The position numbers were made by a program, and so were the translations under genes. The notes beneath the pieces were generated by a model. It worked only from the letters and a program-made list of their open reading frames with translations. It searched no databases and was not told the DNA's origin. From contig DISH01000004.1 of assembly GCA_002421665.1 (NCBI GenBank), positions 152,025-216,024 of the forward strand: a stretch of 64,000 bases of DNA, read 5' to 3'. How positions within the stretch are numbered: position 1 is the stretch's first letter; each line of letters begins with the position of its first letter. The stretch is from Candidatus Omnitrophica bacterium UBA6215. GTDB taxonomy: Bacteria; Omnitrophota; Gorgyraeia; Pluralincolimonadales; Pluralincolimonadaceae. Shown here one piece after another: positions 13,191 through 44,051 of the stretch.

Positions 13191-13249
13191 ACGGCGCCGC
13201 GTGTTATGAGATAATACCGGAGTGTTCCCAATCTCAACAGGAGGTAGTG

Positions 13250-13531: not shown

Positions 13532-13545
13532 TAGGAGGAAAAACC

Positions 13546-14070: not shown

Positions 14071-14087
14071 AAAGGAAAGCAAACCGC

Positions 14088-15296
14088 ATGGATGCCGTAG
14101 AGATAAAGAAAGATATATACTGGACCGGAATAACGGACTGGAACGTAAGGACATTCCACGGGCATACCTATTCGACGGCCAGGGGGACCACTTATAATTC
14201 TTACCTCATAGTTGATGACAAACCCACGCTGATAGACGGGGTGTACGGCCCGTTCGCGGAAGAGCAGGTAAAGAAGATAAAGGATGTCATTGCCCCCGAA
14301 AAGATAGAGAACATCATCGTCAACCACATAGAGACGGACCACTCGGGCTCATTGCCGGAACTTGTAAGGACATGCCCGGGGGCGAGGTTATACGGTACTC
14401 AAAAGTGCAAGGAAGGCCTTGGCAGGCTTTATTACGGGATGAAGGATGTAATCGACGATCCGGAACGTTTCCGGGTCGTCAAGACCGGCGACAGGCTTAA
14501 CATCGGAAAGAGGACGCTCTCGTTCATCGAAGCACCGATGATCCACTGGCCCGACAGCATGTTCACATATTGCCCTGACGAGGAGCTGCTTTTCTCCAAT
14601 GATGCGTTCGGGCAGCATTACGCGACTTCCGGGAAGTTCGATGATGAGGTCGACATGTGCGCCCTTATGGATGAGGCTACTAAATATTATGCCAATATCC
14701 TGTGGCCGCTTGGTGCGATGATCGACAGGAAGATAAACGAGATACTGGGCTCAGGCATTCCTATAAAGATGATAGCCCCGAGCCACGGCGTGATATGGCG
14801 CAAGGACCCGCTTAAGCCCGTGAAGGCGTATATGTCATGGGCAAAGAACGAGACAAAACGCAAGGCCGTTATCGTATATGAGACGATGTGGGATTCTACC
14901 GCGAAGATGGCCAGGGCGATAGCCGACGGGCTGATAGAAAGCGGAGTAGATACAAAATTATTCGATATAACGGCCTCGGACAGTACAGAGGTTGCCAGCC
15001 AGATGCTTGACGCAAAGGCCTTTATTATAGGTTCGTCCACCCATGACAACGACATGCTTCCGTCTATAGCCGCTTTCCTTGAGCTCTTAAAGGGTTTCAA
15101 GGCAAAGAACAGGATAGCGGCGGTCTTCGGTTCTTACGGGTGGGCCGGCGGCGCGGTGAAAGAGATAGAAGAGGTCCTTAAAGAAGGGGGGATCGAGACG
15201 GTCCTGCCCCCGGTTTCGGTCAAGTTCGTTCCCGATGAAGCCGACCTGAAATGCTGCCGGGACCTCGGGACAGAGATGGCTAAAAAGATACAATAA
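14088..15296 (+). CDS. fprA: flavodiiron protein (FprA / rubredoxin:oxygen oxidoreductase)
   Basis: Metallo-beta-lactamase-like diiron domain (HIETDHSG) plus a C-terminal flavodoxin domain; ATG 14088. Confidence 0.85.
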   Translation: MDAVEIKKDIYWTGITDWNVRTFHGHTYSTARGTTYNSYLIVDDKPTLIDGVYGPFAEEQVKKIKDVIAPEKIENIIVNHIETDHSGSLPELVRTCPGARLYGTQKCKEGLGRLYYGMKDVIDDPERFRVVKTGDRLNIGKRTLSFIEAPMIHWPDSMFTYCPDEELLFSNDAFGQHYATSGKFDDEVDMCALMDEATKYYANILWPLGAMIDRKINEILGSGIPIKMIAPSHGVIWRKDPLKPVKAYMSWAKNETKRKAVIVYETMWDSTAKMARAIADGLIESGVDTKLFDITASDSTEVASQMLDAKAFIIGSSTHDNDMLPSIAAFLELLKGFKAKNRIAAVFGSYGWAGGAVKEIEEVLKEGGIETVLPPVSVKFVPDEADLKCCRDLGTEMAKKIQ

Positions 15297-19194: not shown

Positions 19195-19952
19195 AGCGGC
19201 TGCGGATACCGGTCCTTTTGTTACTGTTGCTTGCCTTATGCGGCAGGGTTTACGGAGACGGGACATTTATTACGCGCCATAAATGTACGGACCTCAAGGG
19301 GAATTTCTTATGGGAAGCCGCGGTCACGATAACACCGTCCGGCAGCGACCCTGATACCTATATCCTTGTCGAAGAGGGCAAGGGCAGGTTCAGCGGATAT
19401 AAGGGAGAGAGTTCCCGTAAGTCTGAGATGCGTTTTATAAGTAAAAGCGGTTCCATAAGGCCGCTTGAAATGAAAAGCTCGGTGTTTTCACCGGAAGGCA
19501 GGCTTATAGCAGAGGCCAAGCAGGAATTTGACCCTTCGGGGGGCTCAGTAGCTTGCTGCGCGAGGGACCTCGTTAAAGACACATGCCGGACGAGATCATT
19601 CAAGCTGAAAGGTGATACGATAAACAGGCTCTTGACCGGGCTTTATGCCAGGCAGATGATAGAGGAAGGCGGTAAGGAAAAGACCGTGAATATGTTGAGC
19701 GAAGAACCGGCCCTTTACCGCGTGACGCTCAGGGTGACGGGAAAAGAGACGATAGAGGTCAACGGCCGCCGGCGAGAAGCGTTCAAGGTATGCATAGACC
19801 CTAATATAGGCCTCTTGACCCCGGTAAAGTTCTTCCTGCCTAAGAATTATACCTGGTTTTCTTGTGAACCCCCTTATGAATGGCTTAAGTTTGTCGGATT
19901 GGAGGAGTCGATAGATTCCCCGATGGTAGAGATAACCACTTTGGATAACTGA
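19191..19952 (+). CDS. hypothetical secreted protein
   Basis: Signal peptide MKRLRIPVLLLLLLALCGRVYG; 4 bp overlap with the upstream gene. Confidence 0.45.
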   Translation: MKRLRIPVLLLLLLALCGRVYGDGTFITRHKCTDLKGNFLWEAAVTITPSGSDPDTYILVEEGKGRFSGYKGESSRKSEMRFISKSGSIRPLEMKSSVFSPEGRLIAEAKQEFDPSGGSVACCARDLVKDTCRTRSFKLKGDTINRLLTGLYARQMIEEGGKEKTVNMLSEEPALYRVTLRVTGKETIEVNGRRREAFKVCIDPNIGLLTPVKFFLPKNYTWFSCEPPYEWLKFVGLEESIDSPMVEITTLDN

Positions 19953-19954
19953 AG

Positions 19955-21283
19955 ATGATCCCGGAAAGGTTCAAGACAGAATACAAAAATGAGCTCAGGC
20001 GCATATTCGACCAGCGCATAAACCTTTTTTGCTATATAGTCATAAGCGCTTTTTTTGTCGAGATAGTACTGGCGAGTTTCTGGTTCAGGAGGCTGCTCAG
20101 CTCAAAGGATATACCGGGGGTGGCCGGCGGCACCATCCTGGCCGCCATAATCCTGTTTTCGGGTAAGATAAAGGTAACAAGGGGCCTGTTTATCCATAAG
20201 TTGAGGGGTTTCTTCTTCAGCATATTCCTGGTGTCGATAGCGATACTTGCGGCGGCGGCGCACCCGGATGTCATAGCCAACCTCGGCATAACGCTTGTGC
20301 TTATAGCCCTGTTCGTCAGCGTGCTGCTACTGCCTTGGAATGTCCCTGAAACAGCCGTTCTCGGCGTATATACGCTTGTAAGTTTCATAGGCGTATACGA
20401 GATGTCGAATACTTACGTGAACTACGAGATATTCGGCATAAACATAACCCTTCTGGTTACCGCGACGATCATCTGCATGGTGGTCAAAAAAAGCGAAGAG
20501 GTCATGAGACAGAAGGATTTTGTGCTCAAGAAAGAGATCGAGGAGAAGAGCAGGATCATGGTCAAGGAGCTCGAGATCGCCAATAAGATACACAGCGGGC
20601 TCATGCCTAAATCGGTCAAGACCGACCTTGTGGATATCGCGGTGGATTACAAGCCGATGCTTTATATGGGAGGGGATTATGCCAGGTTCCATTTCATGGA
20701 AAAGGACCTTTTGGCGTTCATGATAGCCGATATCACCGGGCATGGAGTTTCGGCAGCCTTGCTCGTCAACAGGCTGCATACAGAGATCGAGGAGCTGCTG
20801 AGGATTAAGCTTGCCCCGGGCGAGATGTTGAAGCGCCTCGACGGTTTCATAAAGTCGGATTTCGGGAAGATGAGCATATTCTTGAGCGCGTTCGGCGGCC
20901 TGCTTAATTTCAGGGAGAGGAAACTTATATATTCGAATTTCGGACACCCGCCGCAGATATTGTTCCGGAAGGCGGATAACAAGATAATATATATGGAATC
21001 GCAGACCTTCCTGATGGGGATCGGTATGGACGAGGCCAGGGTATACCAGATGTCGCTGGATTTCGATAAAGGCGACAAGATATTCCTGTTCACGGACGGG
21101 ATAATAGAGGCGAGGAACACGGCGGGGGAGCAATACGGGAACAGGCGTTTCGAGGATTTCGTTAAGGATAACGGGGGCCTCGATGTCATGACCTTCAACG
21201 AGAAGCTGATGTCCGAACTGGAAGATTTCCAGGACGGAAAGCAGGGAGACGATATCTTCCTGCTTTCGATACAGATAAAATAG
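19955..21283 (+). CDS. membrane-anchored PP2C-family serine phosphatase (SpoIIE/RsbU-like)
   Basis: Multi-TM N-terminus; PP2C motifs FMIADITGHGVSAAL and FLFTDGIIEARN. Confidence 0.8.
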   Translation: MIPERFKTEYKNELRRIFDQRINLFCYIVISAFFVEIVLASFWFRRLLSSKDIPGVAGGTILAAIILFSGKIKVTRGLFIHKLRGFFFSIFLVSIAILAAAAHPDVIANLGITLVLIALFVSVLLLPWNVPETAVLGVYTLVSFIGVYEMSNTYVNYEIFGINITLLVTATIICMVVKKSEEVMRQKDFVLKKEIEEKSRIMVKELEIANKIHSGLMPKSVKTDLVDIAVDYKPMLYMGGDYARFHFMEKDLLAFMIADITGHGVSAALLVNRLHTEIEELLRIKLAPGEMLKRLDGFIKSDFGKMSIFLSAFGGLLNFRERKLIYSNFGHPPQILFRKADNKIIYMESQTFLMGIGMDEARVYQMSLDFDKGDKIFLFTDGIIEARNTAGEQYGNRRFEDFVKDNGGLDVMTFNEKLMSELEDFQDGKQGDDIFLLSIQIK

Positions 21284-21296
21284 GGGGGCAGGGTAA

Positions 21297-21767
21297 TTGA
21301 GAGGTTTCATTCTTACTTGGGTAGTGAATATAGCGGCTATCATAGTTGTCATCAATATGGTACCGGGCATACATTCCGAAGGCAGGCTGGCGACGGTCCT
21401 TGCGGCGCTGGTATTGGGGCTGATAAACGCGACTTTGCGGCCGATAGTCTTTGCATTAACCCTGCCGTTGACCGTGCTGTCCTTAGGGGTCTTTACACTG
21501 TTCATGAATGCCGCGTTCTTCTACCTGGCCTCATGGCTTGTAGAGGGTTTTGTCGTAGCGGATTTCTGGGCGGCTTTCTGGGGGGCATTGTGTTTCAGCG
21601 CGGTGAGTTTCGTATTGAACCTGCTTGTGAGCCCCCAGGGCAGGTTCAGGGTATACAGGTTCGACGATCGCAGGACTCCGCCGCCTTCATCCGGCAGCGG
21701 CCCGGACATAATAGACGTAGATGCGGAAGTAGATGATGATCAGGAGGAAGATAATGGCTCGAAGTAG
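21297..21767 (+). CDS. phage holin family 4 (DUF360/YvlD-like) membrane protein
   Basis: 156 aa, four TM helices, GLINATLRPIVFALTLPLTVLSLG pattern; acidic C-terminal tail. Confidence 0.6.
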   Translation: MRGFILTWVVNIAAIIVVINMVPGIHSEGRLATVLAALVLGLINATLRPIVFALTLPLTVLSLGVFTLFMNAAFFYLASWLVEGFVVADFWAAFWGALCFSAVSFVLNLLVSPQGRFRVYRFDDRRTPPPSSGSGPDIIDVDAEVDDDQEEDNGSK

Positions 21768-22494
21768 CCCTTTGCTGCTTTATGGCAAGAATGCCGTGGT
21801 CGAACGCCTGAAGGCGAACATGAGGGGCGTCAGGAAAGTTATAATCTCGGAAGAATTTGAGGATGCCTCTGCGCTTGAATTGATAAAGGCAAGACGGATC
21901 CCCGTACAAAAAGTCTCCGCCAAGGATATGCTCAAGATGAAACGGACCGAAAGAGCCCAGGGGATAATCGCCGAGGTAGATCCGTTCAGGTATTCGCCGT
22001 TCGAGGAACTTATCCTGGCTCCAAAGGAGGAGAGGCTTTCCTTTATATTCCTCGATGAGGTCACGGATCCGCAGAATCTCGGGGCGATAATAAGGATAGC
22101 GGCCTGTTTCGGGGGATTCGGGATAGTGATACCCGAGAGGGGCGCCTGCGAAGTCAACGAGACCGTGCTCAATATCGCCTCAGGCGGGGATAACTACGTT
22201 CCGGTCTGCAGGATAAACAACCTGACCAATGCCCTGATACACGCCAAAAAGGCCGGATACTGGGCGGCAGGGGCGGTTGTTGAGGGAGGAGAGGACCTTA
22301 CAAAAGTTTCTTTCCCGTTCCCGCTGTGTATAGTGATGGGTTCGGAAGGCAAAGGTATACATTATGGCGTAGAGAAGCATCTGGAGATGAAGGTAACATT
22401 GCCGATGAAAGGTGCGGCGCTCTCATTCAACGTGGCGATGGCTTCGTCCGTGTTCTGCTATGAGATATCGAAACAGAAAGCCGGGACGAAGTAA
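21754..22494 (+). CDS. rlmB: TrmH/SpoU-family 23S rRNA 2'-O-methyltransferase (RlmB-like)
   Basis: SpoU substrate-binding N-terminal domain plus SPOUT motifs (LDEVTDPQNLGAIIR, IVMGSEGKG); start taken at MARSS, inside the ORF-track start at 21733. Confidence 0.75.
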   Translation: MARSSPLLLYGKNAVVERLKANMRGVRKVIISEEFEDASALELIKARRIPVQKVSAKDMLKMKRTERAQGIIAEVDPFRYSPFEELILAPKEERLSFIFLDEVTDPQNLGAIIRIAACFGGFGIVIPERGACEVNETVLNIASGGDNYVPVCRINNLTNALIHAKKAGYWAAGAVVEGGEDLTKVSFPFPLCIVMGSEGKGIHYGVEKHLEMKVTLPMKGAALSFNVAMASSVFCYEISKQKAGTK

Positions 22495-31760: not shown

Positions 31761-32581
31761 CGGAATTATTGGGACAGGTCAGGGAAGCCGTCCAGTACGG
31801 GTTCGTCCAGCGCGCGGTGATCGCGGGTTGCTTTATGGCCCTCGGGTGTTCTTTCCTGGGGGTATTTCTTGTCCTGCGCAGGTTCTCGCTTATAGGCGAC
31901 GGTCTGGCCCACGTAAGTTTTGCGACCGTGGCTATAGGTCTGCTCTTGCACGCGCAGCCGATGGTCGTTTCCATACCGTTGGTGGCGCTTGCGTCATTGG
32001 CGATACTGGAGCTCAACGAGAAAGCGAAGGTATACGGCGACGCTGCCATAGGGCTCGTGTCATCGTTCGGTATCGCCCTTGGCGTGATCATCGCTTCCAC
32101 GGCCGGGGGGTTCAATGTCGACCTTTTCAGCTACCTTTTTGGAAATATCCTTTCGGTGAGTTCCTTCGAGGTACGCTTGACCGCGGCGATCTCCGTGATC
32201 GTGGTCCTTGTTACGGTATTGTTCTACCATGACCTGTTCTCCATAACTTTCGATGAGGATTACGCTCGGGTGACCGGCATCAAGGTCAGGGCTGTCAATA
32301 AGCTGTTGATCGTGCTGACCTCGCTTGTGATCGTTCTGGGGATAAAGATAGTCGGGACCATGCTTGTCTCGAGCCTTATCATCCTGCCGGCCATATCGGC
32401 GTTGCAGGTAGTGCGCAGCTTCAGGGCGACGATAGCGCTTGCAGGGATATTTGCCGTCCTATCTGTGTTGATCGGGATCTTTGTTTCGTATGTGCTAAAT
32501 TATCCTTCCGGGGCTACTATTGTAATGGTGAATTTCGTGTTTTTTATCGGGTCCTTTCTTTATGGCAAGATCAAAGGTTAA
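31757..32581 (+). CDS. znuB: zinc ABC transporter permease ZnuB
   Basis: 274 aa, eight-TM ABC-3 family permease. Confidence 0.88.
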   Translation: MTELLGQVREAVQYGFVQRAVIAGCFMALGCSFLGVFLVLRRFSLIGDGLAHVSFATVAIGLLLHAQPMVVSIPLVALASLAILELNEKAKVYGDAAIGLVSSFGIALGVIIASTAGGFNVDLFSYLFGNILSVSSFEVRLTAAISVIVVLVTVLFYHDLFSITFDEDYARVTGIKVRAVNKLLIVLTSLVIVLGIKIVGTMLVSSLIILPAISALQVVRSFRATIALAGIFAVLSVLIGIFVSYVLNYPSGATIVMVNFVFFIGSFLYGKIKG

Positions 32582-33752
32582 GGTTTTCGATCTGCTGCTT
32601 ATCCTTTTACTGGGCCTTCTGGTACGCCTGATCCCCCTATTTAACGCCATAGATTGGACGGATCTTTACGGGCGGCAGGCGATGCCCATACTCGACCACC
32701 TTAATATTTACAGCTCAACAAAAAGGGTTTTTCCGTATTCGCCTGTTTCTATGTTCCTGCCGGCCGGATGCGCGATATTATCCACCGCGCTGGAGATTCC
32801 GTTCTATATGATCATGAGGTTGCCGGGCATTATCGCGGACATATGCATCGGATTGTCGTTATATTTAACACTGGCCGGTGCCGGCAAGGAGAGGGCGGCT
32901 CTTTTCGCGGGATTACTCTACGTCCTGAACCCGGTATCGATATTGATATCCTCCTTCCACGGTAATGTCATGCCTATTGCGGTATTGTTCTCGTTCCTGG
33001 CATATACGGTATTGTTGAAAGGAGAGGAAGAGAATTACAGGTTGTCCGCGCTGCTTTTGGGGCTGGCTATCGGCTTCCGGGGCTACCCGGCGCTCCTCCT
33101 GCCGCTGTTCCTTATTAAGTTGAGACTTCCCGTAAGCAAGAAGGTAAAATATGTCCTCTATTCAACCATTCCTACGGCGTTATCATTCGTGCCGTTCCTG
33201 CTTTTGGACTACAGGTCGGTTTTTAGAGAAGTATTTTCATATACGGGTTTCCCGGACTACGGGCTGGGCGCTTTGTTAAGGGCGTTCTATTCACTGCAAA
33301 ATTTTGACATTTTCGTCAATTTTCCCGGAGGATTACTGCCCAGGCTTTTGATCTATACAAAAGCGTTATTTATCGTTATCTATATATTGATATTGGTTTT
33401 TGCGCGAAGGAAGAGGCTGGTATCATTAGTGCTTGCGGTTTTCCTGGCGTTCTATTGCGTATATTCCGGCATCTCATCACAATACCTAATTTGGTTGCTG
33501 CCGTTCGCTTTCCTGGCGGGGGACAGGATGTTGAAATACTACATAATAATCGCCGCGTGGGCGATGGTCAATTTCTATTATTTATATCATCCCTACATAA
33601 TTTTCGGTAAAGTATCAATGACGAATATGCCGCTCGTTGGTTTATTGAAAGGGCAGATAATTTCGCTGGGCCTGCTTTGGCTGGTGTGCGCGGTATGGCT
33701 GGTCCTTATCCTGGCCGAAAAAGGCCGGGTGGCCGGGCGGGATCTTTTATGA
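32562..33752 (+). CDS. GT87/DUF2029-like membrane glycosyltransferase
   Basis: 396 aa polytopic protein; the conserved early periplasmic loop of the DUF2029 pattern. Confidence 0.45.
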   Translation: MARSKVKVFDLLLILLLGLLVRLIPLFNAIDWTDLYGRQAMPILDHLNIYSSTKRVFPYSPVSMFLPAGCAILSTALEIPFYMIMRLPGIIADICIGLSLYLTLAGAGKERAALFAGLLYVLNPVSILISSFHGNVMPIAVLFSFLAYTVLLKGEEENYRLSALLLGLAIGFRGYPALLLPLFLIKLRLPVSKKVKYVLYSTIPTALSFVPFLLLDYRSVFREVFSYTGFPDYGLGALLRAFYSLQNFDIFVNFPGGLLPRLLIYTKALFIVIYILILVFARRKRLVSLVLAVFLAFYCVYSGISSQYLIWLLPFAFLAGDRMLKYYIIIAAWAMVNFYYLYHPYIIFGKVSMTNMPLVGLLKGQIISLGLLWLVCAVWLVLILAEKGRVAGRDLL

Positions 33753-35708: not shown

Positions 35709-36604
35709 TGTTGAACAAACTTGCTTATTATGCGAAGTGGTACTATCTGTGCCGCATAAGGAACCGGAAAATACCTCTTAACAGTTCTCTTATTCTGACC
35801 GATCAATGTAATTTAAAATGTAAACATTGCACCGTATCCGGGCTGGGATACCCGGCGAGAAGCTTCCGGGAGGTTACTGGAGATGTCCGAAAATTATATG
35901 ACCTCGGGTCCAGGGTCCTGGTCATTACAGGCGGGGAGCCATACGTTTGGGCCGATAAGGAATATACGGTAGAAGACATCGTCCGATTTGCAAAAACGGT
36001 TGGATTCTTCCGCGTCGTCATCTGCACGAACGGGACTTATGACCTGCGGTCATCGGCGGATTATCTGTGGGTCAGCCTCGACGGTTTCAGCTTACAGCAT
36101 ACGAACTTGAGGGGGGATGTGTATGAACGGGTGGTGCGGAACATAGAACAGAGCCGGCACGGAAGTATATATATAAATTTCACCATCAGCCGTGAAAATC
36201 ATGATATATTCGAAGAAGCCGCCGAAGAGATATTGAAAATAAGGAATATACGCGGTATCTTATTTCATATTTTTACCCCTTATAAAGGTTCGGACCCGGA
36301 CTTGAAGCTCACTGCCGAAGAGAAGGACCGGGTTTTGGGCCGTTTGTTAAAAATAAAAAGAAAGCATCCTGTTAGGATATTCAATACGTTTGACGGATTA
36401 AGAGCGATGCGGTCTAAGGATTGGGACAGGCCCATCTGGGCAAGCATTGTCAGCAACCGGGGCCAGATCGGTCCGTGCTGCTGCCGAGAGGGCATATATG
36501 ACAAAGAAATATGTGAAGAATGCGGGTGCACTCCGGCAGTCGAAACATATGTTCTGCAGGAGGGGAAGGTCCTTGCCGGCATGGAAAATTTGAGGTTCAT
36601 TTAA
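35708..36604 (+). CDS. radical SAM protein with Cys-rich (SPASM-like) C-terminus
   Basis: CNLKCKHC motif; C-terminal CCCREG...CEECGC cluster; 1-nt TAATG overlap with the upstream radical-SAM gene. Confidence 0.7.
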   Translation: MLNKLAYYAKWYYLCRIRNRKIPLNSSLILTDQCNLKCKHCTVSGLGYPARSFREVTGDVRKLYDLGSRVLVITGGEPYVWADKEYTVEDIVRFAKTVGFFRVVICTNGTYDLRSSADYLWVSLDGFSLQHTNLRGDVYERVVRNIEQSRHGSIYINFTISRENHDIFEEAAEEILKIRNIRGILFHIFTPYKGSDPDLKLTAEEKDRVLGRLLKIKRKHPVRIFNTFDGLRAMRSKDWDRPIWASIVSNRGQIGPCCCREGIYDKEICEECGCTPAVETYVLQEGKVLAGMENLRFI

Positions 36605-37044
36605 TAATTAGGAAGGTAAGTATAAACTATTTTTGGAAGAGGTATAGCATATCATGAAGCGGGATGTCAAATTGATTTACATACGCACATTCGGCTGACC
36701 GATGGAAGCAGTATTATACGACTATTCTGACGTATCTGAGCAATATCTGGTAAGCGGAACTCGTTGAACTATTGAAGGTTAAGGAAGGCAACAGGGATTA
36801 ACAAGGATAAAACAGGATTTGGCAAAAGAAGGCGAGAAAAAAGTCTGAGTTTACAAAGTAAACTTAGCTAACGCATCAGAAATAAAATTCGATAGGTTAG
36901 AAAAGTTTATTAAGAGTAGAAATACTCCTGGGGTTTAATTACTCGAGAGAATGTAGGACATAATTTGGGGTGGATAAGTTCGTATCAGCAATGCATAAAC
37001 TAAATAGAGTCAGTATAGGTATATGGGAATGAGAGGGAGTAGAA

Positions 37045-39135
37045 ATGTATTTAAAAAGCCTAAAAATAATTAATTTTAGAAAATTTGGAGAATTGAACAA
37101 TGTTGTGGAATTTGTAGGCTCAAAAGGTGCCCAACCAAAAACTGAGGGAATTAACATAGCTTTATCTACAACTTTAATTGTGGGGAAAAACAATTCTGGT
37201 AAAACAACAGTAACAGAAGCGCTAAAGAGACTAATTCACGACAGAAAATTTAAAGCAAATGACTTTAATTTCATGTATTTAAACACGCTGCTTGAGGAAT
37301 ACAAAAAAGGCAAATTTGAACGTTTTCCAAAACTCGAGTTTGAAATCACTGTAAGGATTGATTTTAGCAGCGATTCCGACTTGGTTACAAATATTGCTCC
37401 ATTCATGAGTATAGAAGGCGTGGCGTCAGCAGGCAAGAAAAGCGATTTTCAAGTTCTCATGAAATATGAAATAAAAGAAGAGACAAGTTTTGAGGACGAA
37501 GTCCTGTCTATTATTGGAAAGTATAAAGATGAAACATTATTGTTTCGGAAATTTTTGGAACTCATTACCAATACTGAGTTCGAATTTAATTACTATAATT
37601 CAGAAGATGTGTTGATAGAAGATAATAAATTCAAGATTAGTGATTTGTTGGAAATCAAAGTAATTAATGCTAACAAAGATATTCATGGGAACTGTTTGTC
37701 TAATATTTTTAATAGGATAATTAAGCTGCTTTGCACGAGCGGGAACAAACCGGTTGTTCCTGATGGTATAGCTTCCGAGATAGATAAAATTAATAAGACG
37801 ATAACAAAAAAAGTGTCAGCGCCGCACGCTACGACTGTCAACAGAGCATTGAGTAAAATTGAGTCAAGTGACCACATGGAAGTTAACTTAAGGCCAGATT
37901 TAACTTTTGATAATATTCTTTCAACAATTATCCGATATGAATATAAAGAAGGGAAATTTCATATCCCCGAAGGACAGTTTGGTCTTGGGTACTCGAACCT
38001 CATGATGATTATTGGAGAACTGATTGAGTACATTGAGAAGTATCCTAAGCAGGAGCACCACAGTAAGATTAATTTGATTTGCATAGAAGAGCCGGAAGCT
38101 TTCATGCACTGTCAGATGCAGGAATTATTCATAAAGCATATTAATGATGCTGTTGATTTTCTCTTGAAGGATAGAGAGAAAGAAATTAACAGTCAGCTAA
38201 TAGTGACGACGCATTCCCCTCATATCTTAAATAGCAAGATTCATAGTGGAAATACTTTTGACAATATAAGTTATAGTACCATTGTCGATGATTTCGCAAA
38301 TGTTGTTAATCTGAATGATGTCAACGTAATGGGGGATAAGTCTGCTGATGAGGGAAAAGGTGATGTGGCGGCAGAAAAGAAAACCGCTGATGACCTTAAG
38401 TTCCTAAAGAAACACATCAAATACAAAGTGTCGGAGCTGTTCTTTTCTGATGCGGTAATCTTTGTTGAAGGAGTGACAGAAGAAACACTGCTATCTTATT
38501 ATATTGACAAAGACAAAACATTAAATCGTTATTACATTTCAGTCTTTAACATTAATGGCTCACACGGTCTTGTTTATCACCCACTGATAAAGCTTCTTAA
38601 AGTTCCCAATCTAATCATAACCGACTTTGATATAAGAAGAGAAGAGAAAGAAAAAGATGACTGCCTTCAAATCAAAGACCTAAAAGATAGGGAGACTACA
38701 AATAAAACCATTGCCAAATATAATCCTGACAAAGAAAAAATCGGAAATCTTAAAGGATATTTCGAAGATGAAAACATATATGTAATATTTCAGCGTGAAG
38801 CCATCGAAGGATATTATGCGACTAGCTTTGAGGAAGCATTTATTCTCACTAACTATAATAACGACATACTGAATAACGCTTTATCTGTTGTAAAACCTGG
38901 AGTCTATAAAAAAATCAGTGGGGAGCCAATAGATAGAAATAGGCTCAAGGACGCATCCTATAAGTTGCAAAGCAGCCTTTCTAAAAGCAAAAGCGACTTT
39001 TCAAATGAGCTGCTATACGAAATCGTAGTTAGCGAAGATGCAGGAGCCATACCGAAACCGCCGAAATACATAACAGACGGGTTGGTGTGGTTGACTCGTT
39101 CCGTTAAGAAGCAAGCAAAAGGGGGGAATAAATAA
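37045..39135 (+). CDS. gajA: OLD-family ATP-dependent endonuclease (ABC ATPase + Toprim), GajA-like
   Basis: 696 aa; KSLKIINFRKF start, Walker A GKNNSGKTT, Walker B/D-loop LICIEEPEAFMH, H-loop QLIVTTHSPHIL, Toprim motifs VIFVEGVTEETLL and LIITDFDIRRE; GAGGGAG RBS. Confidence 0.85.
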   Translation: MYLKSLKIINFRKFGELNNVVEFVGSKGAQPKTEGINIALSTTLIVGKNNSGKTTVTEALKRLIHDRKFKANDFNFMYLNTLLEEYKKGKFERFPKLEFEITVRIDFSSDSDLVTNIAPFMSIEGVASAGKKSDFQVLMKYEIKEETSFEDEVLSIIGKYKDETLLFRKFLELITNTEFEFNYYNSEDVLIEDNKFKISDLLEIKVINANKDIHGNCLSNIFNRIIKLLCTSGNKPVVPDGIASEIDKINKTITKKVSAPHATTVNRALSKIESSDHMEVNLRPDLTFDNILSTIIRYEYKEGKFHIPEGQFGLGYSNLMMIIGELIEYIEKYPKQEHHSKINLICIEEPEAFMHCQMQELFIKHINDAVDFLLKDREKEINSQLIVTTHSPHILNSKIHSGNTFDNISYSTIVDDFANVVNLNDVNVMGDKSADEGKGDVAAEKKTADDLKFLKKHIKYKVSELFFSDAVIFVEGVTEETLLSYYIDKDKTLNRYYISVFNINGSHGLVYHPLIKLLKVPNLIITDFDIRREEKEKDDCLQIKDLKDRETTNKTIAKYNPDKEKIGNLKGYFEDENIYVIFQREAIEGYYATSFEEAFILTNYNNDILNNALSVVKPGVYKKISGEPIDRNRLKDASYKLQSSLSKSKSDFSNELLYEIVVSEDAGAIPKPPKYITDGLVWLTRSVKKQAKGGNK

Positions 39136-41507
39136 TGAGCCTATCAAAAATATCCCCTACTTCCGAGAAGGAAGAGCTCGCTGTTCAAGACCTCGTTAAT
39201 TCATATATTGACAGGAACGAAAGCCTTGTTTTTAGCGCAGGAGCAGGAGCAGGAAAGACTTATGCCTTAACTGAGAGCTTAAAACATATCGTAAAAGTGC
39301 ACGGCGACAGGCTGGTTAGGCATAACCAAAAAATAATATGTATTACATATACGAATGTCGCAACAAATGAAATCAAAGAGCGTCTTGGCAACTCAGACCT
39401 TGTCAAGGTTTCAACTATTCATGAAAGAGTTTGGGATTTAATTAATGATTATCAAAAGGAGCTTATTAAGATACACGTTGAAAAAATTCAGGAAGATCTT
39501 GTTAAGTTGCAGTTTGACTTGTATGACAGTAACGAGGAAAAAGAAGAAAGCTTGTATAAGGCTTACCGGGGGCTTTCAGATAGCGAAAAAGCTGAATTTA
39601 AAAGCATGATGATTGCTAAAAAGAAAGAGTTTTACAGATTTTACGATAAGCCTGCTAAAGAATTTAAGTTTGCAATGGGAGATTTTATTGGTGGATATGC
39701 GAGCCTTTTGAGCAATGTTGCAAATTTTAAGAAAACAGTAAGTATAATTTATAAGATTGAGAATTATAAAGAGTGTCTGGGGAAAATCAATGAAGGACAT
39801 GCGAAATACGCTGAGGTTAAATATGACGACAGATATAATTTTGACGTCCTTCATCGAATGATAATAAGTCACGATACGCTTCTTGAGTATGCTCTTAAGA
39901 TGATTAAGACTTATGATTTGTTGAAGCGTGTTATATTTGATAGTTATCCGTACATTCTCATAGACGAATACCAAGACACTAATCAAAACGTAGTTGAAAT
40001 AATGAAACTTATTGAAGATCACGCAAAGAGCATTAAGCGCAAACTTTTTGTGGGTTATTTCGGTGATTCAGCACAAAACATCTACGAAGACGGAGTAGGG
40101 AGTGGCCTTGTCAATATTCATCCAGAATTAAAGGGCGTGAATAAACAATTCAATCGCAGGTCTCATTCAGAAATAATCGATGTCATAAATAAAATCAGGA
40201 ATGATGAAATAAAACAGAAGTCCATATTTGAGGATTGTACTGGCGGAAGTATTGAGTTTTACGCCGGAACGAATGAAGTTAAACATCTATTCATCGAAGA
40301 ATACAGAAAAAAGTGGAATATCAACTCAGAAAATAAACTTCATTGTTTGGTTTTACTGAATAAATTTGTCGCAGAATTCAATGGCTTTCCCGATATATAC
40401 AGATGTTTTGCAGATACTTCTTATTACAAAATAAACTATGACCGCCTAAACAATGAAATACTCAGCAATGATCTATCCAAGCTGGGAGACATCCCAAACC
40501 TATTCTATAGAGTTCTCAAATTCATTGACAACTTAAATAACCTTAATACTTCTGTTGCCAACATAGTCGATAAGGAAACCTATTCCAGAATGACGTTTCT
40601 CAAAATAAAAGAGCTTACCACTATATTCAAGAACCTCAAAGGTGTTACTTTAGGAGAGTATATAAAAGACATATTTGAAAAATACAGCAATTCTGACAAT
40701 AACTATTATAAAAAAGTCATTCAAAAACTGATTGGCATTGAATATTACTCATATCACGATTTTACAAATTACCTCCTTGACGAATTGTTTTTCAATATAG
40801 GAAACGGAAGGTGGGAAGAATTCAAGCTTACGGTTGTTGAATTGACACAGAATGATTTATCTGCAAAGACAGACGAAAAGGAATTTAAGCCATTTAAGCT
40901 AAAATTGGACAATTTTCTTTCTGGAGAATATTTTTCTTATCTCGACATTCAGGAAGTAAACGCCTTTAAACAAAGGCTCGTTGAGTTCATAAAAGAACAA
41001 AAAATAACAAGCATAAAAACCAAAGATATGGACTCTTTCATGGAAAAATTGGACCAAACATTTCAAAATGAAATAATAGCCCTAATAGATAAAGATGAGG
41101 TTGAAGTCGCTAAAACAAAACTCGATGAACTCCTAAACATAAAATTAGACCAGTGGAAAATCTGGTACGATTTCATAAACAATAAACAAAAATCCGAGAT
41201 TGAGTACCATACCTATCATGGAACAAAAGGCGCCGAATACGATAACGTCATAATCATTATGGAAAACGATTTTGGGCGAATGAATAAAGATAAATTCTCA
41301 TCTTTTTTCAAGCATTACAAAAATCCTGATTCTTTACTTGAAGAAGACAGAGTTAAGTTTAATAATACAAAAAACTTGTTATACGTATCTTGTTCCCGCG
41401 CAATTAAAAACTTAAGGATTTTATATCTTGACGATATATCTGAATTTCGAGAAGGAATAGAACATATTTTTGGAACAGTAAACCCTTATAAACCAAACTT
41501 AATCTAA
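39135..41507 (+). CDS. gajB: UvrD-like superfamily 1 helicase, GajB-like
   Basis: 790 aa; Walker A AGAGAGKTY, motif II YILIDEYQDTNQ, motif III FGDSAQNIYE, motif VI-like YHTYHGTKGAEYDNVIII; start overlaps the gajA-like stop (TAATG). Confidence 0.85.
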   Translation: MSLSKISPTSEKEELAVQDLVNSYIDRNESLVFSAGAGAGKTYALTESLKHIVKVHGDRLVRHNQKIICITYTNVATNEIKERLGNSDLVKVSTIHERVWDLINDYQKELIKIHVEKIQEDLVKLQFDLYDSNEEKEESLYKAYRGLSDSEKAEFKSMMIAKKKEFYRFYDKPAKEFKFAMGDFIGGYASLLSNVANFKKTVSIIYKIENYKECLGKINEGHAKYAEVKYDDRYNFDVLHRMIISHDTLLEYALKMIKTYDLLKRVIFDSYPYILIDEYQDTNQNVVEIMKLIEDHAKSIKRKLFVGYFGDSAQNIYEDGVGSGLVNIHPELKGVNKQFNRRSHSEIIDVINKIRNDEIKQKSIFEDCTGGSIEFYAGTNEVKHLFIEEYRKKWNINSENKLHCLVLLNKFVAEFNGFPDIYRCFADTSYYKINYDRLNNEILSNDLSKLGDIPNLFYRVLKFIDNLNNLNTSVANIVDKETYSRMTFLKIKELTTIFKNLKGVTLGEYIKDIFEKYSNSDNNYYKKVIQKLIGIEYYSYHDFTNYLLDELFFNIGNGRWEEFKLTVVELTQNDLSAKTDEKEFKPFKLKLDNFLSGEYFSYLDIQEVNAFKQRLVEFIKEQKITSIKTKDMDSFMEKLDQTFQNEIIALIDKDEVEVAKTKLDELLNIKLDQWKIWYDFINNKQKSEIEYHTYHGTKGAEYDNVIIIMENDFGRMNKDKFSSFFKHYKNPDSLLEEDRVKFNNTKNLLYVSCSRAIKNLRILYLDDISEFREGIEHIFGTVNPYKPNLI

Positions 41508-41540
41508 AGGAGATGCCCATGGGCGGTTTTAAAAAAGGAT

Positions 41541-41894
41541 TTGGACGGCAGCGAAGAGCAATGGCGATATGAAAGATTTATCGAGATAATATTTGAAGCA
41601 GATAAAAAGTGTTTAGAACAGCATATAGAGGAACGAAGACTCAAAGAACAGGCGATAGATAACCAAATCAGAAAGGTTGATGCAAAACATTTTCAGAAAT
41701 GCGCGCAGTGGTCAGGCAAAAAATACAACCTAACGCAAACAGCGAGAATTTTAAGGGTGCATCGGCAGACGTTATATCATTGGATTAAGAAGGGTTGGTG
41801 CAAACCGAAACGTGATTACAGGAATTATCCTGTTTTTACAGTTTTAGACATTGAAAACCTGATGAAGTGGAGAAACACGATAAAATCGGGATGA
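41541..41894 (+). CDS. small HTH_17 (AlpA/excisionase/MerR-type) DNA-binding protein; TTG start
   Basis: C-terminal helix-turn-helix NLTQTARILRVHRQTLYHWIKKGW; AT-rich codon usage like the island; only a TTG start is available in frame. Confidence 0.5.
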   Translation: MDGSEEQWRYERFIEIIFEADKKCLEQHIEERRLKEQAIDNQIRKVDAKHFQKCAQWSGKKYNLTQTARILRVHRQTLYHWIKKGWCKPKRDYRNYPVFTVLDIENLMKWRNTIKSG

Positions 41895-41981
41895 AAAAGC
41901 ATCAAAAACGCCTTTTAGTCGTATACATTCATCTACTTAGACAGTTTTAGACACTTGGGCGTAATATCATAAGGCACTAGT

Positions 41982-44051
41982 ATGAAAGAAGATAAGAAAA
42001 AAATTTACCTTCGCAGTTTTGGATGCCAGATGAACTTCCGTGATTCCGAAGAGATCGCCGGGCTCATGATGGAAAAGGGCTGGGAGCTTACGGATTCCCC
42101 GGAAGAAGCCGATGCCGCTATATTCAATACGTGCGCCGTGCGCAAGCACGCGGAGGACCGCGCGATCAGCAATGTCGGGGCGCTTGCACCTTTCAAAAAG
42201 AAACGTCCCCGGCTGGTGATAGGCGTTGTCGGCTGCATGGCCAAGGCTCATGGCAGGAATATCATCGACAGGGTACCGATAGTGGATTTTATCGCCGGGC
42301 CGGCAAATATCTATGACATCCCGGCGGCGGTTGACGCTATCATGGCGCGGAGGAAAGACCCGGTCATCTCGACGGACAAGGTCTCGCGTCCGTATATCGG
42401 AAATATCGCCTACCATAATCCCGGCATAAGCGCGCTGGTTACTATCATGGAAGGGTGTAATAACTTCTGCTCGTATTGCATCGTGCCTTATGTCAGGGGC
42501 CGTGAAGTCGGAAGGCCCGCGGATGACATAATAGACGAGATAAAGGCGCTCGCCGATAAAGGGTACAAAGAAGTGACCTTGCTGGGGCAAAATGTTAATT
42601 CATACGCGGATAAGAGCGGAGTGTCCCTAAATGACACGTCCCAAAGTGGCACGTCCCCTTTTACGCGGTTGCTGGAGAGGATCAATGGGATAGAGGGGAT
42701 AGAGCGAGTCCGCTTCCTTACCAGCCACCCGAAGGACGCAAGCGAGGCGCTCTTCAAGGCGATGAGGGACCTGCCGAAGGTATGCGAACATCTCCATTTG
42801 CCCTTGCAGTCGGGTTCTGATAAAATATTAAAGTCGATGAACAGGGGCTATACAGCCTCGGAATACCTGAAGAAAGTCGAACTGCTGCGCAAGTATGTGG
42901 CGGATTGCGCTCTGACAACGGATATAATAGTCGGGTACCCGGGTGAATCGGATGAGGATTTTCGCATGACCGAAAAGGTGATGCGGGAGGCCGGGTTCAA
43001 TTCGGCATTTATATTCAAATACTCTCCGCGCCCTCCGGCTAAGGCGAGCGGGTTCGATGATGATGTGCCGAAGAAGGTAAAAGAGGAGCGCAACCAGGCG
43101 TTGCTCAGGTTAAGGGATAAGATGTCGAGTGCACTCGACAGGGAATTCATAGGCGGTGAGACCGAGGTCCTTGTGGAACAGATATGCAGAAAGGAAAAGC
43201 ATAAAGTGTCCGGACGCAACAGGCAGAACATCAAGGTTGTCTTTGAAGGCGGCAGAGCGCTTATAGGAGCCATAAAAAAGGTGAAGGTATCTTCCGTTGT
43301 CGGCCATACGCTAGCGGGAACGGCGCTGCTGGCGCTATTGGCGGCCGGGTTGCCTTTGATGCCCGCCGCGGCGGAGACCATAGACGAATATTTCGTGAGC
43401 GGCGATTACGAGAATACCGTCAGGGAAGGCGTAAAGCTTGTGCAATCATACAAGGAGAAGGATAAGCTTTATTACATGATCGGCACAAGTCTCAATAAAC
43501 TGGGCCGCTATGACCTCGCCAGGAAGAATTTCAATATACTTATGGATACGGCCCCAAAGAGCAGGTTTGCGCCGTTGGCCCAATTGGGTATAGCCGACAG
43601 TTACTACCTGAGCTCGGACTACAAGAATGCCAGGGCCTGCTATGAAAAATATCTTTCAAAGTACCCGAAATCGGAGGGGGGAGCGGTCGCTTATTTCAGG
43701 CTGGCAAAATGCGCCCAAAAAGAAGGTAACTGGCAGTCGGCGAGGAATTATTACCAGAAAGTAAAGAGCGAATACCCGATGAGTTTTGAAGCTCAGACGG
43801 CCTCGGATGCGCTCAGGGACGAGATACTTTTCTTTACGGTACAGGTCGGCTCATTCAATAAGAAGGCAAATGCCCTCAGGTTATGCGATGAACTTGTCAA
43901 GAAGGGTTATGACGCCTCTATTGTGAAATCGAGCGGTGACGCGGAAGAATCTTATAAGGTAAGGGTCGGCAGGCTCGGCGACAGGGATTCGGCGGAAGCG
44001 CTGGCCAAGAAATTGAGGGCCGAAGGCCTTCCAACGAAAGTCCTTCCGTAA
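41982..44051 (+). CDS. miaB: tRNA-i6A37 methylthiotransferase MiaB with unusual C-terminal TM-TPR-SPOR extension (or in-frame fused/nested second gene from ~43281)
   Basis: MTTase N-domain, radical-SAM CNNFCSYC motif and TRAM domain occupy residues ~1-440; the frame then continues through a hydrophobic helix (LAGTALLALLAAGLPLMPAAA), TPR repeats and a SPOR domain (FTVQVGSF...YKVRVGRLGD) to 44051. An in-frame REP insert lies at 42619-42658. Confidence 0.8.
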   Translation: MKEDKKKIYLRSFGCQMNFRDSEEIAGLMMEKGWELTDSPEEADAAIFNTCAVRKHAEDRAISNVGALAPFKKKRPRLVIGVVGCMAKAHGRNIIDRVPIVDFIAGPANIYDIPAAVDAIMARRKDPVISTDKVSRPYIGNIAYHNPGISALVTIMEGCNNFCSYCIVPYVRGREVGRPADDIIDEIKALADKGYKEVTLLGQNVNSYADKSGVSLNDTSQSGTSPFTRLLERINGIEGIERVRFLTSHPKDASEALFKAMRDLPKVCEHLHLPLQSGSDKILKSMNRGYTASEYLKKVELLRKYVADCALTTDIIVGYPGESDEDFRMTEKVMREAGFNSAFIFKYSPRPPAKASGFDDDVPKKVKEERNQALLRLRDKMSSALDREFIGGETEVLVEQICRKEKHKVSGRNRQNIKVVFEGGRALIGAIKKVKVSSVVGHTLAGTALLALLAAGLPLMPAAAETIDEYFVSGDYENTVREGVKLVQSYKEKDKLYYMIGTSLNKLGRYDLARKNFNILMDTAPKSRFAPLAQLGIADSYYLSSDYKNARACYEKYLSKYPKSEGGAVAYFRLAKCAQKEGNWQSARNYYQKVKSEYPMSFEAQTASDALRDEILFFTVQVGSFNKKANALRLCDELVKKGYDASIVKSSGDAEESYKVRVGRLGDRDSAEALAKKLRAEGLPTKVLP
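42619..42658 (-). repeat. REP-like 40 bp element embedded in-frame in miaB
   Basis: GAGTGTCCCTAAATGACACGTCCCAAAGTGGCACGTCCCC, same family as 8255-8294; translated as VSLNDTSQSGTSP inside the MiaB loop between NSY and FTRLL. Confidence 0.8.

What the first reader, a model, noticed from the sequence alone, without database searches (positions are those of the whole stretch)
37045..41507. Gabija-like defence module with unusually large components
ORF1 has the ABC-type ATPase motifs (Walker A GKNNSGKTT, CIEEPE, TTHSP) and the OLD-family Toprim motifs (VEGxTE, DxD). This is the GajA / class 1 OLD architecture. It is translationally coupled (TAATG) to a UvrD-like SF1 helicase with DEYQDT, the GajB role. 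Both are much longer than typical GajA/GajB, the helicase especially, which has long inserts between motifs III and VI. This may be a divergent or expanded Gabija variant, or a related OLD-plus-helicase system. An OLD-nuclease plus helicase pair in a low-GC island is a strong anti-phage signature.
Basis: partly seen in the sequence, partly recalled or inferred. Interest (0 to 1): 0.9.

Follow-up and report, generated by a model that had tools for sequence, protein, structure and literature searches.

The report
Gabija anti-phage gene pair, long-helicase form
This is an ordinary two-gene Gabija anti-phage defence cassette (an OLD-family nuclease plus a UvrD-like helicase). It was acquired horizontally by an uncultured Omnitrophota bacterium, and its only unusual feature is a clade-specific 97-residue helical insert in the helicase.

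Summary
Two intact ORFs overlap by one base (TAATG): 37045-39135 (696 aa) and 39135-41507 (790 aa). They lie in a 5.4 kb islet of 34% GC in a 51% GC chromosome, and all the cited motifs are present.

ORF1 matches the PADLOC GajA model PDLC00065 end to end (E 5.5e-200). ORF2 matches the GajB model PDLC00128 (E 2.2e-262). The predicted GajA fold is closest to Bacillus cereus GajA. The nuclease-helicase gene order is kept in 79 of 80 related loci across many phyla, with unrelated neighbours and a GC content equal to or, mostly, below that of the flanks.

The "unusually large" claim holds only against the B. cereus type proteins. GajA has the normal size for its subfamily. GajB exceeds its closest model by about 100 aa, because of a four-helix insert (residues 557-652) in the 2B subdomain. 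At least 39 protein clusters share that insert and nothing else does.

The islet sits at the 5' end of miaB. A sister lineage carries a serine-recombinase element at the same site, and an excisionase-like HTH gene survives in the window.

Verdict: a new member of a known kind, of low interest.

The parts
36605..37044 (+). Upstream non-coding part of the islet (440 bp, 36.6% GC), with a GGGAG Shine-Dalgarno sequence just before the gajA ATG. It presumably holds the promoter, which was not identified.
   Evidence: Sequence read. GC. No ORF of note, no Rfam match, and no promoter-like site above chance.
37045..39135 (+). gajA, a class 2 OLD-family nuclease of 696 aa. The N-terminal ABC-type ATPase runs to about residue 430, with Walker A K53, Walker B-like E348/E349 and H390, and with a helical dimerisation insert at about 217-272. 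A disordered linker covers about 430-450. The C-terminal Toprim has E475, G505, D527/D529 and E596/E597, and is followed by a helical region at 595-692.
   Evidence: PADLOC GajA PDLC00065, E 5.5e-200, residues 1-687 against profile positions 1-667 of 670. Pfam AAA_15 and OLD-like_TOPRIM. Invariant residues. AlphaFold2 model with pLDDT 81. Best PDB folds are B. cereus GajA 8u7i_A at 1e-21 and 8sm3_A at 8e-19.
39135..41507 (+). gajB, a UvrD/Rep/PcrA-like SF1A helicase of 790 aa, overlapping gajA by one base (TAATG). Motifs: I GAGAGKT 36-42, Ia TYTN 71-74, II DEYQD 277-281, III GDSAQNIY 310-317, IV NRRS 340-343, V HGTKG 695-699, VI SR 754-755. The enlarged 1B subdomain spans about 97-240 and the 2B subdomain about 405-685.
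   Evidence: PADLOC GajB PDLC00128, E 2.2e-262, residues 3-786 against profile positions 2-683 of 685. Pfam UvrD-helicase and AAA_19. Invariant motifs. AlphaFold2 model with pLDDT 86. Foldseek gives Rep/UvrD/PcrA at about 2e-16 and B. cereus GajB at 3e-8.
40803..41090 (+). Clade-specific insert in the 2B subdomain of GajB (residues about 557-652), predicted as four helices (558-578, 581-597, 605-621, 629-648). It is absent from the roughly 685 aa form of the same subfamily.
   Evidence: Alignment A1, two length classes and model secondary structure. No Pfam family. Only 5 hits among 1.84 billion representatives; the full-length one (P0024, 790 aa) is a long-form GajB and the other four are 125-350 aa fragments.
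41541..41894 (+). Small HTH protein (117 aa as called from TTG) of the excisionase/MerR type. It is not part of the conserved Gabija core. It is probably a leftover of the integrative element that brought, or once occupied, the islet.
   Evidence: Pfam MerR_1 at 1e-5 and HTH_17 at 1.6e-5. PHROG 66 'excisionase and transcriptional regulator'. Residues 60-115 are 55% identical to the HTH_17 gene next to a serine recombinase at the same site in the sister lineage. Absent from all 80 related Gabija loci.
41982..42012 (+). Right border of the islet, inside the first 30 nt of miaB. Homology with the sister lineage begins at window 42012.
   Evidence: blastn, junction alignment A6 and gene maps of L088 and L090.

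Best explanation
The locus is a two-gene Gabija anti-phage system, carried as a horizontally acquired cassette in the chromosome of a Candidatus Omnitrophota bacterium.

Shown here:
- GajA is an ABC-ATPase fused to an OLD-type Toprim nuclease, with a complete set of nucleotide-binding and two-metal catalytic residues.
- GajB is an SF1A UvrD-like helicase or ATPase with all seven motifs intact.
- The two genes overlap by one base and keep this order across phyla.

Inferred from work on the B. cereus VD045 and P. aeruginosa PA14 systems:
- The proteins assemble into a GajA4:GajB4 complex.
- The GajA Toprim nicks or cleaves invading DNA.
- Cleavage is held in check by cellular NTPs bound at the ATPase domain, and by host RecBCD activity on DNA ends.
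- GajB engages DNA ends and burns (d)ATP or (d)GTP, which reinforces activation.
- The net effect is to block phage genome circularisation and replication.

The 97-residue four-helix insert in the GajB 2B subdomain defines a sub-clade. It most likely changes the accessory-domain surface (regulation, DNA gating or partner contacts) rather than the chemistry.

The adjacent HTH gene is a remnant of an integrative element at the miaB 5' hot spot. It is not a Gabija component.
For: - Full-length, very strong matches to Gabija-specific profiles: GajA 5.5e-200 and GajB 2.2e-262.
- Pfam AAA_15, OLD-like_TOPRIM and UvrD-helicase.
- Catalytic and motif residues are invariant among homologues.
- The GajA model is closest to the solved B. 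cereus GajA structures, ahead of class 1 Thermus scotoductus OLD (TsOLD, 6p74) and the retron Eco8 OLD.
- A GajA homologue lies directly upstream of GajB in 79 of 80 related loci from Planctomycetota, Omnitrophota, Bacillota, Bacteroidota, Gammaproteobacteria, Campylobacterota and others.
- The neighbours of those pairs are heterogeneous. No Pfam family occurs in more than 3 of 149 neighbour proteins. Integrases, TniQ and DNA methylases are present.
- In 16 relatives the cassette GC is equal to or, mostly, below that of the flanks, for example 31% against 50% in Citrobacter and 36% against 58% in Pseudomonas.
- The islet occupies a site where a sister lineage carries a serine-recombinase element.
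- The helicase scores far below the Rep and PcrA equivalog cut-offs: 61 bits against 951, and 49 against 911.
- For the definition and mechanism of Gabija: PMC10568477, PMC10781630, PMC10681800, PMC12407980.
Against: - No experiment exists on this protein pair, and I found no tested member of this PADLOC subfamily.
- Sequence searches do not connect this GajA to B. cereus GajA at all. They connect GajB to B. cereus GajB only weakly (E about 5e-9), less well than to PcrA and UvrD. Mechanistic transfer from the type system is therefore an extrapolation across deep divergence.
- The GajB here keeps much larger 1B and 2B subdomains than B. cereus GajB, so it may behave differently, for example as a true helicase.
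- No promoter or terminator was identified.
- The surrounding genes are housekeeping, so this is a solitary islet rather than a multi-system defence island.
Confidence: 0.88

Rival explanations
1. The pair is a housekeeping DNA-repair module: a UvrD/PcrA/Rep orthologue with an accessory nuclease that acts on the host's own DNA, not an immune system.
For: The GajB model is structurally closer to Rep, UvrD and PcrA (E about 2e-16) than to B. cereus GajB (3e-8). The flanking genes are housekeeping: ZnuABC, radical SAM, MiaB, MiaA, HflX, HrcA-GrpE-DnaK.
Against: - Scores against the NCBIfam Rep and PcrA equivalogs are 61 and 49 bits, against cut-offs of 951 and 911.
- GC is 34% in a 51% genome.
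- A sister lineage with 88% identical miaB-miaA has a different mobile element at this site, with no gajAB in the sequence available.
- Distribution is patchy across phyla and neighbourhoods are not conserved.
- The best profiles are Gabija-specific.
Confidence: 0.03
2. It belongs to a different OLD-containing defence system: class 1 stand-alone OLD, a class 3 retron-associated OLD (Eco8 type), or PARIS/Septu-like. The helicase would then be an unrelated neighbour.
For: Weak secondary hits to AriA (1.4e-28), P2 Old (3.4e-20), retron Eco8 effector (3e-9) and PtuA (2.9e-6). Retron Eco8 OLD structures are good fold matches, at about 1e-16.
Against: - There is no reverse transcriptase ORF and no ncRNA or Rfam hit in the islet.
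- ATPase and Toprim are fused in one chain, unlike PARIS AriA and AriB.
- There is no HNH partner, as Septu would have.
- The Eco8 NCBIfam score is 36 bits against a cut-off of 250.
- The helicase overlaps the nuclease gene by one base and co-occurs with it in 79 of 80 loci.
- The GajA HMM is about 170 orders of magnitude better than any rival.
Confidence: 0.03
3. The cassette is Gabija-derived but inactive or decaying: a stranded remnant of a degraded mobile element that no longer defends.
For: The element's recombinase is missing and only an HTH remnant survives. No recognisable promoter was found. One metagenome assembly shows gajB split in two (L003).
Against: - Both ORFs are full length with every catalytic motif intact.
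- The same intact sequence was recovered in at least 15 contigs from independent samples.
- The split in L003 comes with splits in hrcA and dnaK in the same assembly, so it is an assembly error.
- Loss of a recombinase does not impair the cargo.
Confidence: 0.06

Closest known systems
Gabija system of Bacillus cereus VD045 (GajA 578 aa by my recollection; GajB 494 aa; PDB 8SM3, 8U7I, 8J4T, 8X5I)
   Same: The two-gene architecture is the same: an ABC-ATPase-Toprim OLD nuclease followed by an SF1A UvrD-like protein. The Toprim catalytic set is also the same (invariant Glu after beta2, Gly, DxD). B. cereus GajA is the best structural match for the GajA model (E 1e-21), and B. cereus GajB is retrieved by the GajB profile (E 5e-9).
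   Different: No sequence-level match to B. cereus GajA was detected. GajA is about 120 aa longer. GajB is about 300 aa longer, because 1B is about 145 aa against 83 aa and 2B is about 275 aa against 103 aa (PMC10681800). The GajB fold is nearer to Rep, UvrD and PcrA than to B. cereus GajB.
PADLOC-DB Gabija subfamily models PDLC00065 (GajA) and PDLC00128 (GajB)
   Same: The matches are end to end at E 5.5e-200 and 2.2e-262, and GajA is about the same length (696 aa against 670 profile positions). This is the subfamily the locus belongs to. Its members occur in Shewanella, Aliarcobacter, Psychromonas, Methylophaga, Flavobacterium, Bacillota and others.
   Different: The window's GajB carries about 97 extra residues (557-652) that are absent from the 685-position model and from the roughly 685 aa majority form.
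Class 2 OLD nucleases of Burkholderia pseudomallei and Xanthomonas campestris (PDB 6NK8, 6NJV)
   Same: The Toprim core is detectable by sequence, with residues 452-531 matching 6nk8 at E 2e-6. [quoted passage not shown]
   Different: Only the Toprim core aligns. The reported biochemistry differs within the class (non-specific exonuclease or nickase there, site-specific nicking for B. cereus GajA; PMC10568477), so substrate specificity here cannot be predicted.
UvrD / Rep / PcrA housekeeping SF1A helicases
   Same: The 1A-1B-2A-2B layout and all helicase motifs are shared. These are the best fold matches for GajB (E about 2e-16).
   Different: Identity is about 15%. Scores lie far below the orthologue cut-offs. 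No GIG motif is seen in the sequence read. The gene is coupled to an OLD nuclease gene and is horizontally mobile.

Membership tests
Gabija (GajA/GajB; class 2 OLD system) | GajA is one polypeptide with an N-terminal ABC-type ATPase and a C-terminal OLD-type Toprim domain carrying the invariant Glu, Gly and DxD. | tested here: met
   Pfam AAA_15 (residues 1-394) and OLD-like_TOPRIM (466-529). K53, E348/E349, H390, E475, G505 and D527/D529 are invariant in 38 homologues.
Gabija (GajA/GajB; class 2 OLD system) | A UvrD/PcrA/Rep-like SF1 helicase gene lies immediately adjacent, in the same orientation and operon. | tested here: met
   One-base overlap at 39135. Pfam UvrD-helicase at 1.2e-24. The adjacency is conserved in 79 of 80 related loci.
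Gabija (GajA/GajB; class 2 OLD system) | Both proteins match Gabija-specific profile HMMs, as used by PADLOC. | tested here: met
   GajA PDLC00065 at 5.5e-200 and GajB PDLC00128 at 2.2e-262, both near full length.
Gabija (GajA/GajB; class 2 OLD system) | The fold resembles the solved B. cereus GajA and GajB structures. | tested here: met
   For GajA the top four PDB hits are B. cereus GajA chains, at 1e-21 to 8e-19. For GajB, 8sm3_B, 8jqb_E and 8iud are significant (3e-8 to 3e-7) but rank below Rep, UvrD and PcrA.
Gabija (GajA/GajB; class 2 OLD system) | A class 2-specific helical insert is associated with the Toprim domain (PMC10568477). | tested here: inconclusive
   The model shows a helical region at 595-692 after the Toprim core, but no residue-level superposition on BpOLD or B. 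cereus GajA was possible.
Gabija (GajA/GajB; class 2 OLD system) | The proteins form a GajA4:GajB4 supramolecular complex. | not testable with these tools
   Only single-chain prediction is available. This needs AF-multimer, SEC-MALS or cryo-EM.
Gabija (GajA/GajB; class 2 OLD system) | The system confers phage resistance and requires both genes. | not testable with these tools
   This is an experimental question.
Class 1 OLD (P2 Old, TsOLD) | The OLD gene stands alone, with no partner helicase. | tested here: not met
   A helicase gene overlaps the 3' end and co-occurs across loci. The Old HMM scores only 3.4e-20, against 5.5e-200 for GajA.
Class 3 OLD (retron Eco8 type) | An adjacent reverse transcriptase and a retron ncRNA are present. 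| tested here: not met
   There is no RT ORF in the islet and no Rfam hit. NCBIfam retron_eff_Eco8 scores 36 bits against a cut-off of 250.
PARIS (AriA/AriB) | The ATPase (AriA) and the Toprim (AriB) are separate proteins. | tested here: not met
   Both domains are in one 696 aa chain. The AriA HMM covers only the ATPase half, at 1.4e-28.
Housekeeping UvrD/Rep/PcrA | The score reaches the NCBIfam equivalog cut-off. | tested here: not met
   rep scores 60.9 bits against 951, and pcrA 49 against 911.

The most novel reading that the evidence does not exclude
The long-GajB sub-clade seen in Omnitrophota, Planctomycetota, a candidate Asgard contig and others may work differently from the B. cereus paradigm. 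It has full-size 1B and 2B subdomains and a private four-helix insert. Its GajB could be a genuine unwinding helicase, or could use the insert as a sensor or docking surface for a phage or host factor. Its triggering logic, or its sensitivity to phage Gad-type inhibitors, could then be distinct from the B. cereus system.
Probability: 0.15. Interest if true: 0.45.

Novelty: new member of a known kind. Interest (0 to 1): 0.2.

Why it matters
The finding has modest importance. It adds a confidently assigned Gabija system to the little-studied candidate phylum Omnitrophota. It shows that the miaB 5' end is a variable integration site in that lineage.

It also delineates a sub-clade of GajB proteins with a private 97-residue insert in the regulatory 2B subdomain. 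Published Gabija structures and biochemistry come almost entirely from the compact B. cereus proteins. This GajA is not detectably similar to them in sequence, and GajB is only weakly similar. A representative of this large, widespread subfamily would therefore be a useful second structural and mechanistic reference, for example to ask whether GajB can be a real helicase.

Nothing here challenges current understanding. Standard defence-finder software would annotate the locus automatically.

Tried and rejected
- Near-identity DNA searches of 36600-42000 against complete E. coli genomes, GenBank phages and PLSDB plasmids found nothing.
- A protein-level search of GajB found nothing in plasmids at E below 1e-30. 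In phages it found only one weak hit, at 26% identity, in a Pseudomonas Pf phage.
- I looked for att-like direct or inverted repeats bracketing the islet. Only short chance-level pairs turned up.
- There is no tRNA in the window.
- The promoter scan was at chance level (17 found, 18.8 expected), and none of the terminator-like sites is positioned to bound the operon.
- The Rfam scan of the islet gave no hits, so there is no retron ncRNA or riboswitch.
- I tried to fix the left border, or find an empty site, through close relatives of the upstream radical-SAM genes. Only the same strain was recovered.
- I tested whether the HTH gene is a third Gabija component. It is rejected, because it is absent from all 80 related loci.
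- I tested whether the insert is a known or shared domain. It is rejected: there is no Pfam match. Of the 5 hits among 1.84 billion representatives, the one full-length protein is a long-form GajB and the other four are short fragments that I did not identify further.
- I looked for a leftover recombinase or primase of the sister-lineage element in the window and found none.
- Sequence and profile searches of PDB did not retrieve B. cereus GajA. The link was made by fold comparison only.

Full report
OBSERVATION

The TAA stop of the first shares its last base with the ATG of the second, which gives the TAATG overlap.

All the motifs quoted are in the translations.
- ORF1: GKNNSGKTT (47-55), CIEEPE (346-351), TTHSP (388-392), VEGVTE (474-479), DFD (527-529).
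- ORF2: GAGAGKT (36-42), DEYQDT (277-282).

The region from about 36600 to 42000 is 31-40% GC in a window that is otherwise 51% GC.

WHAT THE PROTEINS ARE

Pfam assigns ORF1 to AAA_15/AAA_21 (residues 1-394, E 1.8e-29) plus OLD-like_TOPRIM (466-529, E 2.1e-15). It assigns ORF2 to UvrD-helicase/AAA_19 (E 1.2e-24).

Against the PADLOC defence-system library:
- ORF1 matches GajA model PDLC00065 over its whole length (residues 1-687 against positions 1-667 of 670, E 5.5e-200).
- ORF2 matches GajB model PDLC00128 (3-786 against 2-683 of 685, E 2.2e-262).
- The next non-Gabija models are far behind: AriA 1.4e-28, Old 3.4e-20, and the DRT-associated helicase RTasHel 8.8e-28.

In alignments with 37 homologues of GajA and 42 of GajB, at 49-78% identity, the functional residues are invariant.
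- GajA: K53, T54, E348, E349, H390, E475, G476, E479, G505, D527, D529, E596, E597.
- GajB: helicase motifs I, Ia, II, III, IV, V and VI.

Both proteins therefore look catalytically competent.

STRUCTURE

The AlphaFold2 models are confident: GajB has mean pLDDT 86 and GajA 81.

The GajA model's best PDB matches are the B. cereus VD045 GajA chains (8u7i_A at 1e-21; 8x5i and 8sm3_A at about 1e-19). These rank ahead of the class 1 OLD nuclease of Thermus scotoductus (TsOLD, 6p74) and the retron Eco8 OLD effector.

The GajB model is a four-subdomain SF1A helicase. Rep, UvrD and PcrA are the best matches (about 2e-16). B. cereus GajB is significant but lower, at 3e-8.

By sequence this subfamily is very far from the type system. 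Neither phmmer nor a 38-sequence profile retrieves B. cereus GajA from PDB, even at E below 10. B. cereus GajB appears only with the 43-sequence profile, at about 5e-9.

CLASSIFICATION

In the OLD nomenclature, class 1 proteins are stand-alone genes. This is class 2.

Other OLD-containing systems fail their defining tests.
- Retron Eco8 type: there is no reverse transcriptase ORF and no ncRNA, and the NCBIfam Eco8 effector scores 36 bits against a cut-off of 250.
- PARIS: the ATPase and Toprim are fused here, not split between two proteins.
- Housekeeping helicase: the score is 61 bits against Rep (cut-off 951) and 49 against PcrA (cut-off 911).

ARE THE COMPONENTS UNUSUALLY LARGE?

Relative to the B. 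cereus proteins they are. The PDB GajB chains are 493-499 aa and the GajA chains 548-626 residues as modelled or tagged. Relative to the family they mostly are not. The lengths of the 23 GajA models among the top hits shown run from 372 to 752, and the best-matching one has 670 positions.

The database search with GajB shows two length classes within one subfamily:
- a majority form of about 680-700 aa;
- at least 39 clusters of 780-812 aa, which are 52-78% identical to the query.

The alignment shows a single difference between them. It is a block of about 97 residues (query 557-652) lying between conserved flanks. In the model this block forms four helices (558-578, 581-597, 605-621, 629-648). 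It lies between helicase motifs IV (340-343) and V (695-699), which places it inside the 2B accessory subdomain.

The block has no Pfam match. A search of 1.84 billion representative proteins returned 5 hits. The one full-length hit (P0024, 790 aa) is a long-form GajB and the other four are 125-350 aa fragments. The insert is therefore private to this clade and is not a shuffled domain.

The "long inserts between motifs III and VI" are thus the ordinary 2B subdomain plus this addition. The 1B subdomain (about 97-240) is also larger than in B. cereus GajB, where 1B is residues 73-155 and 2B is 314-416 (PMC10681800).

CONSERVATION AND CONTEXT

A scan of one genome per species returned 80 related loci. 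They come from Planctomycetota, Omnitrophota, a Promethearchaeota-binned contig, Campylobacterota, Bacteroidota, Bacillota, Fusobacteriota, Gammaproteobacteria (Vibrio, Citrobacter, Enterobacter, Pseudomonas, Aeromonas), Streptococcus and others.

A GajA homologue lies directly upstream of GajB in 79 of the 80. The exception, L052, is a contig that begins only 174 bases upstream of gajB.

The two genes on each side of the pair were scanned in 38 of these loci (149 proteins). They share no family in more than three cases, and they include phage-type integrases, TniQ and DNA methylases.

In 16 sampled relatives the cassette GC is equal to or, mostly, below that of its flanks, for example 31% against 50% in Citrobacter youngae and 36% against 58% in a Pseudomonas.

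This is the behaviour of a mobile defence cassette, not of a repair operon.

THE ISLET IN THIS GENOME

The identical locus occurs on large contigs (up to 505 kb) from several metagenomes. Housekeeping proteins of the window cluster at 90% identity or more with proteins named from Candidatus Omnitrophota MAGs.

The flanks are housekeeping genes:
- upstream: VIT1, Fur, ZnuABC, rubrerythrin and two radical-SAM genes;
- downstream: miaB, miaA, hflX and hrcA-grpE-dnaK.

So this is a solitary 5.4 kb islet rather than a multi-system island.

In a sister lineage, nucleotide homology (88%) begins at window 42012, which is 30 nt into miaB. Immediately upstream, that lineage carries a different element:
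- a D5/NrS-1-type primase-helicase;
- an 87 aa ORF;
- a 59 aa HTH_17 protein;
- a 559 aa large serine recombinase.

The third ORF of the window's islet (41541-41894, 117 aa) is an HTH of the MerR_1/HTH_17 type. Its best PHROG is "excisionase and transcriptional regulator". Residues 60-115 are 55% identical to that 59 aa HTH.

No recombinase or primase remains in the window, and this HTH is absent from every other Gabija locus. I conclude three things:
- the miaB 5' end is an integration hot spot;
- the Gabija pair arrived as, or replaced, cargo of such an element;
- the HTH is a remnant of that element and not a Gabija component.

The left border could not be fixed, because no relative with an empty site was found and no flanking repeats stand out.

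MECHANISM

Shown here:
- an intact ATPase-Toprim nuclease and an intact SF1A motor;
- a one-base gene overlap;
- conserved pairing across phyla.

Inferred from published work on B. cereus VD045 and P. aeruginosa PA14 Gabija (PMC10781630, PMC10568477, PMC10681800, PMC12407980):
- the proteins form a GajA4:GajB4 assembly;
- the Toprim nicks or cleaves DNA by a two-metal mechanism;
- nuclease activity is inhibited by physiological NTP levels;
- GajB responds to DNA ends with (d)NTP hydrolysis;
- in vivo, the system targets linear DNA ends that are not protected by RecBCD, which blocks phage genome circularisation.

How far this transfers to such a divergent pair is uncertain. B. cereus GajB lacks helicase activity and lacks several UvrD structural elements. 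The protein here has full-size accessory subdomains, so real unwinding activity is possible but untested.

VERDICT

This is a genuine Gabija (class 2 OLD plus UvrD-like) defence cassette, and its subfamily is already represented in PADLOC-DB. It is a new member of a known kind. Its one modest peculiarity is a clade-specific four-helix insert in the GajB 2B subdomain. Interest is low, at about 0.2.

Noticed in passing
window 41982-42012; loci L088 1-3238 and L090 1-4282: The 5' end of miaB is a variable integration site. A sister Omnitrophota lineage (88% nt identity from window 42012 onward) carries a D5/NrS-1-type primase-helicase, an 87 aa ORF, an excisionase-like HTH_17 and a 559 aa large serine recombinase directly against miaB. 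The window has the Gabija islet at the same position.
   Followed up: partly
window 41982-44051: MiaB here is a 689 aa fusion of UPF0004, Radical_SAM, several TPR repeats and a C-terminal SPOR (peptidoglycan-binding) domain. That is an unusual architecture for a tRNA methylthiotransferase. A fragment of it is named 'TolA-binding protein' by JGI.
   Followed up: no
window 32562-33752: A 396 aa ORF directly downstream of the ZnuABC-type transporter genes has no Pfam match. It is conserved as a called gene in all copies of the locus.
   Followed up: no
L003 (JGI 3300001592) 12091-14467, 19229-20277, 20782-22091: In one metagenome assembly gajB, hrcA and dnaK are each split into two ORFs. Housekeeping genes are hit as well, so these are assembly frameshifts and not pseudogenisation of gajB.
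   Followed up: yes
L011 (WJKO01000306.1, 5262 bp): A long-form gajA-gajB pair (59-61% identical to the window's) lies on a short contig binned as a Promethearchaeota (Lokiarchaeota) archaeon. This is either transfer into Asgard archaea or a binning error.
   Followed up: no
loci L013, L018, L035, L047 and others: Across very different hosts the gajAB cassette of this subfamily has a GC content equal to or, mostly, well below that of its flanks, by up to 21 percentage points. This suggests repeated recent transfer from low-GC donors or selection for AT-rich coding.
   Followed up: partly
window 38335-38400 (GajA residues about 431-452): The ATPase and Toprim domains are joined by a charged, low-complexity linker (GDKSADEGKGDVAAEKKTADD). 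It is predicted with low confidence (pLDDT about 50 for residues 431-440) and is poorly conserved among homologues.
   Followed up: no
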